DNA of 64,000 nucleotides from positions 62,620,001 to 62,684,000 of the forward strand of contig JAGIQG010000004.1 in the NCBI GenBank assembly GCA_024679065.1, given 5' to 3'. The DNA comes from Sphyrna mokarran (taxonomy: Eukaryota). Position numbers and translations under genes: made by a program. How positions within the stretch are numbered: position 1 is the stretch's first letter; each line of letters begins with the position of its first letter. The notes below the pieces were generated by a model. It did no database searches and had not been told where the DNA came from. It was given only the letters and a program-made list of their open reading frames with translations. Shown here piece after piece: positions 7,351-57,321 of this stretch.

Positions 7351-7356
7351 TTTATT
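7351..7356 (-). promoter_or_regulatory. Candidate polyadenylation signal for the receptor gene
   Basis: AATAAA on the minus strand ~520 nt past the stop; a second one lies at 7133-7138. Motif only. Confidence 0.25.
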
Positions 7357-7879: not shown

Positions 7880-8008
7880 TTAACCTTTCGTTTTCAACGC
7901 TGCGTATGTTAACCCTGTTTCTCGGAATGTTGTTTTCGACGATGACTTGGGACCTGCCAGATTCAGAGCAACGTAAGTCAGTTTGCTCTCAGCGGTGCTC
8001 TGTATGGT
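7880..8008 (-). CDS. Terminal exon with ITIMs LTYVAL and LTYAAL
   Basis: TIQSTAESKLTYVALNLAGPKSSSKTTFRETGLTYAALKTKG*; acceptor tttacAG. Confidence 0.87.
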   Translation of the reverse strand, partial: TIQSTAESKLTYVALNLAGPKSSSKTTFRETGLTYAALKTKG

Positions 8009-11000
8009 CTGTAAATCAACGGCAGGGAGTATTTTACTATTTGTTAAATTAAATTGTATCGAAATTGCATCAAATTGATTTTCAATATAATCTCAAAAGC
8101 ACATTGTAATAGAGAAGGTTAAAGTTTCCACGTGCGAACTGAGAATTACCTCTGCATATACCGTCTGTTCTCTGTTTTGTTTCGGCATTTCGCCTCGCTT
8201 GGAATCGGTCAGATGAAGAGCAGCATACATCAACTTGCTTTCGGCTGAATTCAGTTCCTCCTAGGGATTCAATGTTTACTATTCAGTAAGTTTCATCTTT
8301 CGGACACAAGATCTTGCATACATGCATATAAATTAGAAGCAGAAGCAGGCCGCTCAACATCTAAAACCATTTTGCTATTCCTTAAAACATGTTTGGTCTC
8401 AGTGTGGCCTCAATTTCACTATTCTTTCTATTCCCTGAATCTCCAAGCCTTGCAAACTGTCCTAATTCAGTAAGCTCCGCATCTACAAATTTCAGTACGC
8501 CTCTAATCTCCGATATTTCCTTGGCATTTCCCAGCCATTATTCACAATTTTTTTTTACTTTTGTAAAACAAAAGCAAATAAGCATTTTTTTTTTTAGTTT
8601 TCTCCCTTGTCAATCAAAAAAAGTCAATCTTAAAGTAATTGAATGAATATGTCTTTACCGCTCTCTGATTAAATCAATTCTACAGATGAGTGACCCGTTG
8701 ACAGAGAAACAAATCAAATCTCCTCATCATTGTCTTAAATGGTAAATCATGTTTTTTTTTTAACAGCATCATGTAAATTCACCTTTTGTTGCAAATTATC
8801 ACATTCTTGCAACATCCGTCCTGTCAATACAACTCAGCATTTTTTTACGTTTCAAAATATTACTTTGTCTTCTAAAGTGAATAGTGTACCGGTCCAATCA
8901 GTTAAAAATGGTTAAGTAACACGTTCACCTCAGCAATCAATGTAGTGAGACTTCTCTTAATTATTTGAACAGAAATTATTTTATTTCTTAATGAAGGACC
9001 AAAGCTGCATCCAATACTTCTGGGCAGGAATTTTACCGACTCGCCCATCCCGATTCCGGGGACGGTCGCGATTCGGAGGGCGGCTTCCTCCTATGGCTTC
9101 GAGCGAGATAGTACATCCGAGTCTAAAATAACTTCGCACACATATAAAAAAATGTTATTTTTTTTTATCCTGATTGCTATTTTTTATCCTGATTCATTGC
9201 TAAATGAATAAATTCACCATTTCTCGCGTTATATACCATCTGTCATCTTTGCACAGACTTTACCTATCCGTGACCCATATTTTCTCCTTGCCACTTGCTC
9301 ACCCATCTACTTTCTTGCATCAATATCATTAACAACAATGAATGTGGTGTCATCATCCAAGTCGTTGATATCAACTGTAAATAATTGAGGACACATGGCG
9401 CTACAATTGACACTAGATCTTTTTTCAACCAGATAAAAGTCCAAAATGTGCCTACTCTATGTTTCCTGACAGCTAGGTAGTCCTTGATAGATGCTATCAC
9501 CTGTATTAAGTGAACTTCCTATGTGTAACCTTTAATGTAGATCATTATGTAATGCCTTTTTGAAATCCAGATATAGTAAATCTACAGGTTCGGTTTTATT
9601 CACGTTGCTTGTTACTTTCTCAAATAACTCATACATTATGTAATGCACACACACAAAAAAATCCAGACAACAACCCCATGTTTACTCTGCTAACCACTAT
9701 CAAATGTTAGTGCCCTGTTACAAATCCTTTTTTAATAGATTCCAGCATTTCGTCAGTGGCAGATGTTAAGCTAAGTGCCCTGTAGTTTTGGAATTCTGTT
9801 TCCCTACGTTCTTGAACAAAGGAGCTACATTAGCTGTTTTATTCAACTCTAATTTGTCGCTGCCAGAATCAAGGAAATTTTGAAAACTTAAATCCATCTC
9901 ATCCGTTATCTCAGCAGTTACTTATTGTATGATCCTCGCAACAGTTGCATTACGCTTTAGAATTTTCAGATTTTTCGTTATATTATTTTTTTCGACAGCA
10001 TCATCCTGCTGAAAGTAGTCGTTTTACTTCTTGTTTCAGTTTCGCATCGAGAGATCCAATTATTTCTGGCATGTATTTTGAATCTTCTGCAGTGATATCT
10101 GTTCCATTGATTCTGCTTTCGCTTGATTGATATTATTACTTCGTCGGACTCGCTCTTCGAACGTTGCTTTTATATATGCTTTTTATATGTCGTTGCTTTT
10201 ACAACACGTGTAGAAACTCTTCCGATGTGTGCTGCATATTCATAGCTAACGCTCGGTCCTGCTCTGATGTTTCACTTCATTTTTACCATTATTCGCTGAA
10301 ATTTATGTAACTTGTTCGTCTAATCCGCCAGTAATCTTAAGGGAATTGATTTTGTTTATTTGAATTTGATCCCATTGATAACTTCCTTAGTTAGCTTCGG
10401 ATGATATGTCCATCCCCTCGAGATTTCTTTTCTTTCTGACTCAAATGACTGAGAATTAGAAAGCATCTCCTTAAATGTCTGATAAAAGCATAACAACTTT
10501 GATGCTAGAATAACAACAGAAAATGCTAGAACATCTTAGCAGATTGACAGCATCCGTAGAGAGAAAATAGAACCAAATCTAGGTCACCGTTCGTCAGAAG
10601 CTCTGACCCCTTGTCAACCACGCCACCGCAGCATTTTTCACTACCAAAACATCGAGTATGGAAATACCAAAGATCAGAGACCATTACGGCACAGAAACAG
10701 TCTTTCGGCCCTCCAAGCTGAAATGTCAGCTTGTGAAAGAGAAAGAAGTGCTGCCTGAAGACTATAAATAGTTTATTTTTTTCTGATTCGCCTAGTGGAT
10801 AAAAAAAAGAGCAAAGAATAACGGATGACCTGATTTTAAACCATGTAAAGAGGAAGGCAATAATACTGCTCTCTACTCTCGTTACCGATTCTACGCTGAG
10901 ATTAGAAATTTGAATTTTATTTGAAATATAAGTGCACTGGCACGTTTTCACCATGCTGCAGCTTGGTTTGCACAACAAATGCAAAGCTGCGAATCTTATC

Positions 11001-14000
11001 ATAACTATTTTTAGTAGCCAAAAAGGCATGCCATTTTATCTAATATAGATGAAAAGTTAAAACTGTATTGAACTTTTCAAATAGCTGGCAGAATTTGCAA
11101 ACGCTTTTACCATTTTTCTAATTTTACTTGTTTTTCCATAAAGTTGTGCTTTTACAGAAAAGAGGAGACGTCAAGTCCAATGTCCCACGTGTTTAAAAGA
11201 GATTTATTTAATGTGATGTATCAATCATTCATCTGAACTTGACAACGCAAGTTCAGGATTGATAATGAAATGTTCTTACCTCATCTGTACGCTGTGTAGT
11301 ATTTATTGATTTTTTCTTTGCACCTGATGAAATTCAAAAAGGACAACGTAAAAATACGGGTCATATTTTTACCTGACTCTATGTCAATTAAGTCAGATTC
11401 AATTCATTCTAGCAAGTTATGGTGATATGCTAATTTAGTAATATACCTCAAAATTTCAAACCGAACGAATTTGTTTCGCTATCGTTTCTGTATTAAAGTT
11501 ACGCAGGCACCATTGAACTATTTAATTTACATTTTTATAGTTAGATCTTTATAATGCAGTTCGGAAAATGAAACTGAGAGAATTATAATGTCAGATGTTT
11601 ATGTAATACATGAGTTGAAGTAATATGTAAGTGTGATGGTATTTTTCCGTCAGTTAATTATGCCAATTATCCCAATAAGCAGCTTTGCTCCCTCTTTTAG
11701 TTACTCGAATCGGATATTTTAAGATTTCGCTTGCGAGTAAATTATTTCTCTCAGTGTGAAAATTCTCATTCGTACCTTTGCACTTCATGATTCCTATCAG
11801 GATCATTAAGGCCAAAAATAGAATTGCAAGTGCACTACCGGACCATCCACCGACCGTAAGAACATTGTTTTCAAAGGAATTAGCTATCAAAACAAGGAAA
11901 TGTCTTGTAAGCCGCATGCACACTGCTCTCAATATCAAATGCATAATTTTCAATTGCACTGTAAACGAATATCATGATACAAAATATAAAACTTCAGTAC
12001 ATCATTTTAATTATCGATATTTATGCAGCTGTTTTACGTACCGTTCAAAAAAAAGCGCAATTGAAACATATAGATCATAGAATCCTGGGGTCGTAGAATC
12101 CCTACAGTGCAGAAGGGAGCCATGGAGTCTGCATCGACAAAATTCCCACGCAGGGTCTATCGCCGCAACTCCAAGTATTTACGCTTAATGCGCCTGACAC
12201 CAAGGCACAATTTAGCATGGTCTACCTAACACACACATCTTTAGAATATAGGAGGGAACCGCAGCACCATGAGGAAACCCGCTCTTTCGGAAGCAGAATA
12301 TGCAAACATTCATCCGAAGCCCGAATTGAACCCGGGTCCCTCGTACTATGAGACAGCTAACCCCTGTGCAAGCCTATTGAAGAAATAATAGCAATGTTGA
12401 ATACGATGTCAATTGAATGGGCACATTTCCATTTATGACTATACAAAATGCAATCGTTTTCAATTTATTGTGCTAACCAAAAAGCAATTAAAATGTCGTA
12501 ACAATTTTCATTGCACCACATGCAGAATATGTCCAAAAATCGCTTGAGTTCATCTTTTAAGGAAAGATTTATTACTGACTGTTTACTCATCTTATCACAA
12601 TTACCTGTAATCCTACTTTTATAGCATTGCTATTGAGCAATAACTTTAAAAATGAAGAATCAAGTTGTTCTAGATTGTATCGACAGCTGTATGAAAAGAC
12701 TCAATTGTTCGATTTCATAGCTCAGGGATCCACTATTTTTCAGTGCCTCGATTGAACATCAATGCTGCATTATTTTCTGGGTTGCAATGTTATGCGGTTA
12801 ATCTGATTTATGGGAGCAATACTCAAGACTCAAACCCATTAGTGATAATGTTGCATGATGCAGTCTACAACCAAATTTTAAAACCAAAATAAAATGGAAA
12901 CCTTCATCCAAAGAATACAATAAGATTCATCAACATACGAGCAAGAAGCTACTCGAGTAATAATTTCCTATGAATTATCGTTTTTTCATGCATTTTTGTG
13001 AAGGGCGAAAGGCTAAACTATCATCGTTCATATAAGATTACCTTCATCAAAAAAGGTATAGCTGGTATTTGCTGGCATTGAGCTGGAAGCGTGATGTACT
13101 TGACAGACATAAACTGAGCCTTGTTCGATCACCTGCAGTTTCAGGGTACTGACAACTTCAAAAAGCCCCTCGGAATTTGCTTGTTGTTCATTTTGAAATC
13201 CGCTGACAATTTGAGCACCGTTTTTATACCAAGTAAGGTTAAATCCTTTAGGGTAAAAAGCCGCAGTTTTGCACTGAAGTCTAATAGTAGCAGATGAGAT
13301 GTCTTCGGATGATAAGGACATAATTTTCAGGGGAACAGGTGGAGCTAAATTCAAGATAACAATATAAATAAATTGAAAAAGTGAGCTTCTGCCTGAAAAA
13401 AAATGTATTTTTATTAATTACACACAGCTACTTCCAGGCAAGCAAGTTGATTTAATAATCAGTATTTTTTATATTGCTGCGTGGTGTTATTCATAGGTTT
13501 TCATAAGCCTCCAAAAGTTTGGAATGTGAACCCTGCTCTCTTCTAATTAGCGAAAGGGCATTGAAAATGTAAATATTGCTAGCGACTTTTAGATTATTCA
13601 TCCAGTTACAAGTTTTCCATATTGAAAACGAGTTTTAATTGTTAGTTTTGCTTGTACTTTGCTTGGCAAACTTCAATTCAAGTAGCATTTTTTAAAAAGT
13701 TAGGGAGATGATAAATTTGCATATCGCTGCTACTGCAAGTTTTCCTCTTTTTTGAACATCTGTCCTTCCAATCAAGTGATGGTGCTTTCTGCGTTTTGCA
13801 CTTATTTATTGTAATGCTGTATTAATCGTCTTTCATTGACACCATCTACTAAACATGACATATTTCAACTCACCATATATGAAAACTTGCACAGCAATAT
13901 CATTCACAATCGCCCGACTCTGAATTTTGACTGCACAGTGATATGTTCCAGCATCCGGTATGTCGACATTCAGGAGATGAAGGTACGCTCCACCTTTCAT

Positions 14001-14548
14001 TATCTGGAAGCGTTTTCCACTGTCCTCCTGCAAAAAGCTGTTATAACCATCTTTCCACCAGAACGCCATTGCGTTTATAATGTCGTTATGGAAAGGGAAA
14101 GGACATCGCAAGGTTACGTTTGTGAATCTGAGCGCCTTTATTGGTTCAATATCCGATGTGCCCATAGCAACTATCAAAAGAAACATGAACAGACACATAC
14201 TAAACCATGCATTTCCAATAAAAATTAATGCATACTACGAAAATAACATCACCCGTTCAGTACCTATATTGTAAAGATTTAATCTGTCTCACTGCCAGAG
14301 TTACCGTCGAGTTCCAGCGTTTATATTTTGACTTGAGATTTGTAATATGTTTTACTCACCCAGAACCTTCCGACCACTAGACCACGTCGTATAGTAATAA
14401 ATACAAATTTAAAAACAAATAAAGATATTCACATTTTCGCCAACTATGAGATCAACTTACTGTCGCGTCTTGCTTGCGAGCAGTCATACAAAACAAAATG
14501 AAAACACAATATAGAAATATACCTGGAAGAAAAATCACCAAAAAACAT
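7880..14548 (-). CDS. Spliced Ig-superfamily receptor gene (leader-V-C1-TM-ITIM tail), SIRP-like, 359 aa; join 14548-14461,14170-13874,13344-13042,11883-11776,11323-11280,8260-8150,8008-7880
   Basis: Exon lengths 88+297+303+108+44+111+129=1080 nt form one open frame ending in TAA at 7882-7880. Every intron is GT-AG. Phases are 1,1,1,1,0,0, the usual IgSF pattern. Extra phase-0 exons inside the 3 kb intron 8261-11279 cannot be excluded. Confidence 0.88.
8150..8260 (-). CDS. Cytoplasmic exon with ITIM LMYAAL and TVYAE
   Basis: EELNSAESKLMYAALHLTDSKRGEMPKQNREQTVYAE; acceptor ccctAG, donor GTAATT; 111 nt, phase 0/0. Confidence 0.87.
8320..9940 (-). mobile_element. Old degraded CR1-like LINE fragments in the receptor intron
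   Basis: Residual RT-like text (ORF 9264-9500: DYLAVRKHRVG.., ISTTWMMTP) and a CR1-type 3' end near 8330. Confidence 0.55.
11280..11323 (-). CDS. Juxtamembrane cytoplasmic exon GAKKKSINTTQRTDE
   Basis: Acceptor tttcatcAG, donor GTAAGA; 44 nt converts phase 1 to phase 0. Confidence 0.8.
11776..11883 (-). CDS. Transmembrane exon ANSFENNVLTVGGWSGSALAILFLALMILIGIMKCK
   Basis: Uncharged hydrophobic run followed by a KCK stop-transfer; acceptor ttttgatAG, donor GTACGA; 108 nt, phase 1/1. Confidence 0.88.
12068..12372 (-). mobile_element. HE1-like tRNA-derived V-SINE (degraded, intronic)
   Basis: B-box-like GGGTTCAATTC on the minus strand, V-domain remnant, (CATAGA) tail. Confidence 0.7.
13042..13344 (-). 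CDS. Ig C1-set domain exon
   Basis: LQCKTAAFYPKGFNLTWYKNG..NSEGLFEVVSTL..YVCQVHH, the C1 signature (FYP, W-x-x-NG, YxCxVxH); acceptor atttAG, donor GTAATC; 303 nt, phase 1/1. Confidence 0.95.
13874..14170 (-). CDS. Ig V-like domain exon
   Basis: VTLRC..AFWWK..LHLLNVDIPDAGTYHC motifs; acceptor ttgatAG, donor GTGAGT; 297 nt, phase 1/1; NVT sequon. Confidence 0.93.
14461..14548 (-). CDS. Exon 1, probable signal peptide MFFGDFSSRYISILCFHFVLYDCSQARRD
   Basis: ATG at 14548, hydrophobic core, strong GTAAGT donor in phase 1. A+TT joins in frame to the V exon. An internal acceptor-like site (ttttcttccAG at ~14524) leaves the true start uncertain. Confidence 0.6.
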
Positions 14549-15279
14549 TTGCCCCAAAGCGACCAACCCATGAGTACATGGACGCAGAGACAATACGATG
14601 AGATTATATATCGAACAGACGGATATGCGTCGAATGGGCGGTTCCCATTTGATTATAAACTACTACTGACTCATGGTATCAGAAAACAAATGACAAGATA
14701 GTGCTGAATGAAACAAATGCATGTTTTTTCGAACAAGATATTCCGGTATGTTAATGAGCTGAAATAGTACTTGGAAACAGAAGGCAATTATATCAAAACA
14801 AATTGGTGAGTGTGGGGCGTGGTGAATGGGACTGGTCTGGACGATGTCGATGAAGCTACGGTATTTGACATGTCAAGTCCATGAATTGCCATTTTGTGGG
14901 GGAATAATATTTCATGGCTTCATAATATAGGTCCCCCAAATATTTGTGTTGGATTTACTGTGAGCCTATGTTGATCGTTTAAATTTTGCATAGGTCCGAA
15001 CCTTCTGGTTGATTCAGGCAGCAGACAGATGAGAGGTGCACAGAGCCAGTCGGATAAATATTACTTGCATTGATTGATGCACCGTCAGATCGTAAGGGAT
15101 GAGGTAATTTCCCGGTAATGGAATAACTGTGGAAATTTCTGAAATTGACTTCTAGTGGTTTTTGCTATTTTTTCTGCGCGGAGTGTAGATTTATTGAATT
15201 ATGCGCACAGTTGGAGATCGGGCCCAGCCTGTTTTACGCCTCACCAGGTACCTTTTAAGCTATCTTCATTCCCAACTGT

Positions 15280-57184: not shown

Positions 57185-57321
57185 NNNNNNNNNNNNNNNN
57201 NNNNNNNNNNNNNNNNNNNNNNNNNNNNNNNNNNNNNNNNNNNNNNNNNNNNNNNNNNNNNNNNNNNNNNNNNNNNNNNNNNNNNNNNNNNNNNNNNNNN
57301 NNNNNNNNNNNNNNNNNNNNN
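57185..57321. other. Assembly gap (137 N)
   Basis: Run of N. Confidence 1.

What the first reader, a model, noticed from the sequence alone, without database searches (positions are those of the whole stretch)
7880..14548. Intact V-C1 immune receptor with four tyrosine motifs, mostly invisible in the ORF track
Seen: seven phase-compatible exons give leader-V-C1-TM and a tail carrying LMYAAL, TVYAET, LTYVAL and LTYAAL. The leader and the three cytoplasmic exons are too short to show in the ORF track. Established: C1-set domains are largely confined to Ig, TCR, MHC, beta2m, tapasin, SIRP and B7-H6-like proteins, and SIRPalpha (V-C1-C1) has four tail tyrosines that recruit SHP-1/2. Inference: this is a non-rearranging, two-domain inhibitory receptor of a cartilaginous fish. 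It could be SIRP-related or belong to a lineage-specific V-C1 family relevant to antigen-receptor origins.
Basis: partly seen in the sequence, partly recalled or inferred. Interest (0 to 1): 0.8.

Follow-up and report, generated by a model that had tools for sequence, protein, structure and literature searches.

The report
Shark inhibitory paired immune receptor gene
This is an intact seven-exon gene of a cartilaginous fish for an antibody-like, non-rearranging surface protein that likely acts as an immune 'brake'; it is one member of a large shark, ray and chimaera family with predicted 'on' and 'off' versions that databases model and loosely label SIRP-like, but whose ligand, expression and ancestry are untested.

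Summary
The gene is real in sequence: seven GT-AG exons give an open 346-aa leader-Ig-C1-TM-tail protein, and shark homologues align across all six junctions. Corrections: the leader is 14571-14523, not 14548; three of the four tail tyrosines are canonical ITIMs (TVYAET is not); domain 1 is a compact V/I-like domain that has lost the J-like GxG most relatives keep.

The gene belongs to a family found in sharks, rays and chimaera. Its members have either ITIM tails with conserved 23/14/23 tyrosine spacing or short tails with a membrane arginine, and the two types interleave on the ectodomain tree: a paired-receptor system. The best reading is an SHP-1/2-recruiting inhibitory receptor (inferred; no RNA or binding data).

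It works like SIRPalpha but fails SIRP's V-C1-C1 definition, and orthology is unresolved. Nothing ties it specially to antigen-receptor origins. RefSeq already models the family under loose names. Nine literature searches listed no description, but key subscription journals are not held. This scan has already noted the family on other DNA of this genome and others. Interest 0.5.

The parts
14523..14571 (-).
   Evidence: hydrophobic, matches homologue leaders (0 of 1000 shuffles), CAG|GT donor, phase 1
13874..14170 (-). Exon 2, compact V/I-like Ig domain (C39, W54/W55, C95), single exon, J-like GxG lost
13042..13344 (-). Exon 3, C1-set Ig domain (C140, W154, C196)
   Evidence: PF07654 E 4.5e-13, 39 of 39 family members hit C1-set
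11776..11883 (-). Exon 4, short stalk and uncharged transmembrane helix
11280..11323 (-). Exon 5, 44-nt juxtamembrane exon, phase 1 to 0
8150..8260 (-). Exon 6, 111 nt, phase 0-0: ITIM Y279 (LMYAAL) and non-canonical Y302
7880..8008 (-). Exon 7 coding part: ITIMs Y316 (LTYVAL) and Y339 (LTYAAL), stop TAA; an old tandem duplicate of exon 6
   Evidence: 55 of 111 nt identical to exon 6, 0 of 5000 codon shuffles
7351..7356 (-). First AATAAA downstream of the stop (523 nt), candidate polyA signal
   Evidence: consensus match only

Best explanation
An intact germline gene for a type I membrane protein (leader, compact Ig domain, C1 domain, uncharged TM, 97-aa tail with three ITIMs) that likely works as the inhibitory member of a chondrichthyan paired immune-receptor family. 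Shown: the exon structure, the motifs, the family, and the two tail/TM types. Inferred from known ITIM receptors: ligand binding at domain 1 would lead to tail tyrosine phosphorylation, tandem-SH2 phosphatases (SHP-1/SHP-2) would dock on tyrosine pairs 23 residues apart (Y279-Y302, Y316-Y339), and leukocyte activation would be damped. Siblings with a similar ectodomain, a short tail and an arginine at the outer end of the TM would signal through an FcR-gamma/CD3-zeta-type adaptor. The ligand is unknown; by analogy with other paired families the likeliest is a self surface protein that pathogens can mimic.
For: Gene model. Full-length homologues at 44-49% identity in horn and zebra sharks. Family in sharks, rays and Callorhinchus. 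Several members per species lie on a contig of the same length, e.g. 9 sevengill-shark proteins on a 66.5-Mb contig. Tyrosine spacing 23/14/23 is exact in the window and recurs, exactly or within one residue, in sharks, a ray and the chimaera. Of 43 family rows with a TM (49 examined) I classed 19 as ITIM-type and 14 as short-tail TM-Arg; 10 were neither, both or truncated. The window gene lies in a 16-row clade (100/99) holding both types. The Arg rows are rejected as one ectodomain clade (AU p 8e-87; at least 4 changes forced), yet 9 of 14 share a TM signature R-x15-19-[DEN]H across several clades, including the chimaera row P0181. PMC1440944 (passages): Fc-gamma partners carry an Arg in the N-terminal TM segment, type I DAP12 partners a central Lys.
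Against: No expression, phosphorylation, phosphatase or adaptor binding, or ligand data. Y302 is non-canonical. The closest full-length homologue P0001 has lost the first tyrosine. All homologues are gene models, and several are truncated or fused. Only this one gene lies in the window, so clustering in this genome was not checked. The classes were read by eye after the first tree was seen, and near-copies make the labels partly clustered (7-8 of 500 shuffles as low).
Confidence: 0.75

Rival explanations
1. The family is the true chondrichthyan branch of the SIRP family, with one C1 fewer, and acts as a CD47-type self sensor on phagocytes. This is compatible with the inhibitory mechanism; it differs on ancestry and ligand.
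For: Atlas top feature hits for P0001 are SIRPalpha clusters (0.96). A rodent SIRPalpha was the only non-chondrichthyan hit of the first family profile (E 2e-14). Profile match 99.35% over 149 columns. Tail register 23/14/23 against 24/17/24. SIRPalpha's tail scores 35.2 bits on the family tail HMM, against at most 16.0 for 118 other stored proteins.
Against: V-C1, not V-C1-C1 (PMC12975943 passages). Domain 1 Cys spacing is 54-60 in 50 of 50 members against 66. The tail signal vanishes when wider motif contexts are kept and only linkers are shuffled (63 and 259 of 500). A second broader profile did not return SIRP, and Ig chains and UrIg2 score at or above SIRP in the PDB. PMC13262535 Table S3 gives SIRP orthologue conservation 0 in Chondrichthyes, ray-finned fish and amphibians.
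Confidence: 0.25
2. The family is a surviving relative of the non-rearranging VJ-C1 precursor of Ig/TCR (PRARP/UrIg-like).
For: Single-exon domain 1 plus C1, as in an antigen-receptor chain. GxG[TSP] in the G strand of 38 of 50 relatives. UrIg2 and Ig chains rank high for family profiles, although multi-domain chains gain score by summing domains.
Against: The window gene lacks GxG. Domain 1 lacks C'/C'' strands in both models. GxG is shared by CD79, NITR, SIRP, CD8, NKp30 and PRARP (PMC11599192 passage), so it is not specific. UrIg2 ties with many others by structure (Z 12.8, rmsd 11.0). ITIM tails are not an antigen-receptor feature (own knowledge).
Confidence: 0.1
3. A B7-H6/B7-like ligand whose tail tyrosines serve reverse signalling or trafficking.
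For: B7-H6 is first in the two-domain structure search (Z 14.3, rmsd 3.1, 184 aligned). Some relatives are named NCR3LG1-like or CD276 homolog by RefSeq.
Against: The first 11 or so rows are within 1 Z and so are tied. Paired ITIM/Arg forms and a conserved tandem tyrosine register are receptor features.
Confidence: 0.07
4. An unexpressed or recently dead copy in a birth-and-death family.
For: Long terminal branch (0.43), loss of GxG, LINE fragments nearby, and no expression data.
Against: All 7 exons are open, all 12 splice sites are canonical, and the core Cys/Trp residues and all four tail tyrosines are kept at about 50% divergence from relatives.
Confidence: 0.05

Closest known systems
RefSeq-modelled chondrichthyan V-C1 proteins, e.g. 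Heterodontus XP_067905931.1 and XP_067906072.1, Stegostoma XP_059507783.1, Heptranchias XP_067853503.1 (named 'uncharacterized', SIRPalpha-like, SIRPbeta1-like, NCR3LG1-like, tapasin-related-like)
   Same: Same family: same leader, domains, junctions and tail register; 44-51% identity.
   Different: No one-to-one orthologue among those retrieved: the window gene is sister to the other 15 rows of its clade. The names are automatic and inconsistent.
SIRP family (SIRPalpha inhibitory, SIRPbeta1 activating)
   Same: Non-rearranging V+C1 ectodomain, four tail tyrosines in two pairs, paired inhibitory and activating forms.
   Different: One C1 rather than two; domain 1 is about 10 residues shorter between the cysteines; activating forms carry an outer TM Arg (Fc-gamma type) rather than using DAP12; CD47 binding untested.
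UrIg, UrIg2 (PMC12227049) and PRARP/VJC1 (papers recalled, not held)
   Same: Single-exon VJ-type domain followed by C1, no rearrangement, cartilaginous fish included.
   Different: UrIg has VJ + 3 C1 and is a secreted disulphide-linked dimer; UrIg2 has 9-11 C1. This family is multigene with ITIM or Arg signalling and a compact domain 1.
NKp30/NCR3 family and teleost NITRs (features recalled)
   Same: VJ-type domain; TM-Arg activating or ITIM-bearing forms.
   Different: NKp30 has no C1 domain, and the second NITR domain is not C1 (recalled). Not compared directly.
B7-H6 (NCR3LG1)
   Same: V + C1-like two-domain ectodomain (Z 14.3, tied).
   Different: A ligand, not a paired ITIM/Arg receptor family.

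Membership tests
Chondrichthyan V-C1 paired-receptor family (unnamed) | Compact domain 1 (Cys-Cys 54-60) + C1 + TM, with the ectodomain grouping in the family | tested here: met
   (clade 100/99)
Chondrichthyan V-C1 paired-receptor family (unnamed) | Inhibitory type: uncharged TM and 23/14/23 tyrosine tail | tested here: met
   (77.6 bits on a tail HMM built without it)
ITIM inhibitory receptors | [ILVS]xYxx[LVI] motifs in the cytoplasmic tail | tested here: met
   3 of 4 tail tyrosines
ITIM inhibitory receptors | Phosphorylation-dependent SHP-1/2 recruitment and inhibition | not testable with these tools
   needs bench work
SIRP | Ectodomain V-C1-C1 | tested here: not met
   One C1 exon, no second C1 in the window; definition from PMC12975943 passages, which also notes D1-only splice variants
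SIRP | Full-length V-set D1 | tested here: not met
   Cys spacing 56 against 66 in rodent SIRPalpha; no C'/C'' strands in the models
SIRP | Four tail tyrosines in two tandem pairs | tested here: met
   23/14/23 against 24/17/24; linker homology not shown
SIRP | Phylogenetic grouping and synteny with amniote SIRPs | tested here: inconclusive
   Only one SIRP sequence was on hand, as a long-branch outgroup; no flanking genes in the window; no genome held
SIRP | CD47 binding | not testable with these tools
   no shark CD47 sequence or assay
Non-rearranging VJ-C1 antigen-receptor-like genes (UrIg/PRARP) | J-like GxG motif within the single V exon | tested here: not met
   Absent in this gene; present in 38 of 50 relatives
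Non-rearranging VJ-C1 antigen-receptor-like genes (UrIg/PRARP) | No rearrangement signals | tested here: met
   One heptamer in 13300-14800, inside the YHC codons, with no nonamer at 12 or 23 spacing
Non-rearranging VJ-C1 antigen-receptor-like genes (UrIg/PRARP) | Linkage to the MHC or antigen-receptor complex; grouping with Ig/TCR domains | tested here: inconclusive
   No synteny available; PDB ranks are not discriminating
B7-H6 / B7 | Orthology and NKp30 binding | tested here: inconclusive
   Top but tied structural match; binding not testable

The most novel reading that the evidence does not exclude
Cartilaginous fish have an undescribed paired-receptor complex, older than the chimaera-shark split and built from compact VJ-C1 chains. 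It swaps a fixed ITIM tail module and a fixed TM-arginine module among diversifying ectodomains. It is their main KIR/LILR/SIRP-like self versus non-self sensor and descends from the VJ-C1 stock that also gave SIRPs or antigen receptors.
Probability: 0.3. Interest if true: 0.8.

Novelty: new variant of a known kind. Interest (0 to 1): 0.5.

Why it matters
Few innate leukocyte receptors are known in cartilaginous fish (own knowledge), and an automated survey finds no SIRP orthologues there. A family with ITIM and TM-arginine forms present in both chimaera and elasmobranchs is a concrete candidate for their missing-self or phagocyte checkpoint system. It also offers a test of whether SIRPs arose at the base of jawed vertebrates and how they relate to other C1-bearing receptors. 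The single gene is ordinary within that family. The paired-receptor principle is well known, so the value lies in the family, its ligand and its ancestry.

Tried and rejected
- RNA runs: no RNA holder was listed, so no reads were laid; this is no evidence either way.
- Genome: none is held, so synteny and paralogue counts in this species could not be checked. tblastn of 58 stored proteins (57 family members and SIRPalpha) found no second copy in the window.
Its donor at 14461 used with the ATG at 14571 would give a phase-0 exon and shift the frame (one search shows 37 codons).
- Tail homology to SIRPalpha: looked significant with hexamers kept (0 of 300) but not with wider motif contexts kept (63 and 259 of 500), so it is not claimed.
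- PDB sequence and fold searches return generic Ig matches with tied scores; NKp30 was not listed in the rows shown, which does not exclude it.
- Homodimer prediction for the P0001 ectodomain gave no answer (0.16 against a mark of 0.32).
- The RSS-like heptamer is explained by the YHC codons.
- The Pfam YesK hit to the TM exon is below cut-off and was dismissed.
- Literature: nine searches listed no paper that, by title and abstract start, describes this family. The one held supplement of PMC3964593 had no hit for SIRP, ITIM, NKp30, V-C1 or CD47 and may not be the main supplementary text. The shark NCR3 family paper was not held.
- Rows dropped: P0013 (fused model) from the trees; 16 of 49 rows (10 unclassed, 6 without TM).
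Full report
Observation. On the minus strand, six exons at 14170-13874, 13344-13042, 11883-11776, 11323-11280, 8260-8150 and 8008-7880 have canonical AG/GT ends, and with a leader exon they join in phases 1,1,1,1,0,0 into an open frame. Two leaders fit in phase. The alternative (ATG 14571, donor 14523) beats all 1000 shuffles and scores higher in 9 of 10 homologues. The corrected protein has 346 residues. Exon 3 is a C1-set domain (E 4.5e-13). Exon 2 is an Ig domain below the V-set cut-off (21.6 of 26 bits). The TM (231-249) is uncharged. The tail holds Y279, Y302, Y316 and Y339; three are canonical ITIMs and TVYAET is not. Shark homologues P0001 and P0012 align in register over all six junctions and P0016 over five. 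A horn-shark isoform lacking C1 and the duplicated tail of P0012 break at our exon boundaries. No RNA check was possible.

Family. Searches with exon 2 and with two successive alignments returned full-length V-C1 proteins named from sharks, rays and the chimaera Callorhinchus. RefSeq calls them uncharacterized, SIRPalpha-like, SIRPbeta1-like, NCR3LG1-like, tapasin-related-like, Ig-lambda-like or MHC-II-like. The best full-length matches are 49% (P0001, horn shark), 46% (P0012) and 47% (P0016, zebra shark). Within a species many members lie on a contig of the same length, which shows one chromosome but not adjacency. All 39 members scanned hit both C1-set and V-set at E 0.001 or better. Domain 1 is compact: Cys-Cys 54-60 in 50 of 50 members, 56 here, 66 in rodent SIRPalpha. 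A J-like GxG[TSP] is present in 38 of 50 but not in this gene. AlphaFold models of the window's domain 1 (pLDDT 87) and of P0001 show no C'/C'' strands. Fold searches return I-set and V-set domains with tied scores.

Pairing. Of 49 family rows 43 have a TM. By eye I classed 19 as long-tailed ITIM forms and 14 as short-tailed forms with an arginine at the outer end of the TM; 10 were left unclassed. The window gene falls in a 16-row clade (100/99) whose named rows are sharks and rays and which holds both types. It is sister to the other 15, so no one-to-one orthologue was found. Its V and C1 exons are as close to Arg forms (44-55% and 49-62%) as to ITIM forms (42-54% and 54-62%). On the ectodomain tree the Arg forms are rejected as one clade (AU p 8e-87) and at least four label changes are forced (classes assigned after one search was seen). 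Nine of the 14 still share one TM signature, R-x15-19-[DEN]H, including a chimaera protein. I infer that signalling modules have been exchanged among ectodomains, or ectodomains homogenised, since before the chimaera-elasmobranch split. The 23/14/23 tail register recurs across the ITIM forms and comes from an old duplication of a phase-0 exon: exons 6 and 7 share 55 of 111 bases, and 0 of 5000 codon shuffles reach that.

Mechanism. Shown: anatomy and family. Inferred from established ITIM biology: ligand engagement, tail phosphorylation, SHP-1/2 docking on tyrosine pairs, and damping of activation. For the siblings, PMC1440944 (passages read) states that Fc-gamma partners carry an N-terminal TM arginine and type I DAP12 partners a central lysine, so an FcR-gamma/CD3-zeta-type adaptor is predicted. 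Ligand and cell type are unknown. Confidence 0.75.

Comparison. The gene works like SIRPalpha. The Atlas ranks SIRPalpha clusters first (0.96), the profile match is strong, and the tail register is similar. Membership is not met on architecture (V-C1-C1 per PMC12975943 passages) or on domain 1 length. The apparent tail homology reduces to motif context and spacing. PMC13262535 (passages and one supplementary row) assigns no SIRP orthologue in Chondrichthyes. Orthology remains open (0.25), because only one SIRP sequence was on hand for trees. UrIg and UrIg2 (PMC12227049, abstract, introduction and section 7; PMC10751288, passages and section 13) are non-rearranging VJ-C1 genes with 3 to 11 C1 domains and are a different kind of protein. 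The GxG motif is shared by CD79, NITR, SIRP, CD8, NKp30 and PRARP (PMC11599192 passage), so it does not single out antigen-receptor ancestry (0.1). B7-H6 leads the two-domain fold search only in a tie. PMC8455134 and PMC8236899 (passages) added nothing on this family. PRARP, VJC1, shark NCR3, NITR and bird SIRP papers are recalled, not read.

Novelty. Nine searches listed no description of the family. Most subscription immunology journals and bioRxiv supplements are not held, so a prior description cannot be excluded. Earlier notes of this scan report the same family on other DNA of this genome and of other genomes. They are unchecked AI notes and are not counted as support; my reading was recorded before I saw them. 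Verdict: a real gene, an ordinary inhibitory member of a little-described chondrichthyan paired-receptor family; new variant of a known kind; interest 0.5.

Noticed in passing
window 14579-14535 (-): A 14-codon out-of-frame ORF starts 8 nt upstream of the preferred ATG and overlaps it; it could damp translation if it lies in the mRNA.
   Followed up: no
window 11279-11253 (-): Reading through the exon 5 donor meets a stop after 8 codons (read), which would give a form without ITIMs; RefSeq model P0009 ends at the matching place.
   Followed up: no
window 13934-13940: A perfect RSS heptamer overlaps the YHC codons of domain 1, without a nonamer.
   Followed up: yes
window 15.4-16.4 kb, 21.2-24.6 kb, 37-41.6 kb, 47-52 kb, 58.7-59.8 kb, 62.7-63.5 kb: Many broken non-LTR retrotransposon copies (RVT_1 and endonuclease confirmed for three ORFs; CR1-like by recall). 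No other host gene was recognised in the window.
   Followed up: partly
window 57185-57321: Assembly gap, a run of 137 N.
   Followed up: no
P0070, P0014, P0009 (stored proteins): P0070 (Mustelus) has both an outer TM arginine and an ITIM tail; P0014 and P0009 have an arginine further inside an inhibitory-type TM. They may be intermediates between the two types.
   Followed up: no
P0012, P0183, P0092, P0140 (stored proteins): Extra tandem copies of the tail exon give up to eight motif tyrosines, so tail length varies by exon duplication.
   Followed up: partly
P0013, P0072 (stored proteins): Annotation artefacts: P0013 appears to fuse two neighbouring family genes, and the N-terminus of P0072 matches the window's LINE remnants.
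   Followed up: partly
P0119, P0166 (stored proteins): A third type with a Cys-rich juxtamembrane region, a long basic tail and no ITIM or TM arginine; P0119's cluster is conserved above 90% in three bamboo/epaulette sharks.
   Followed up: no
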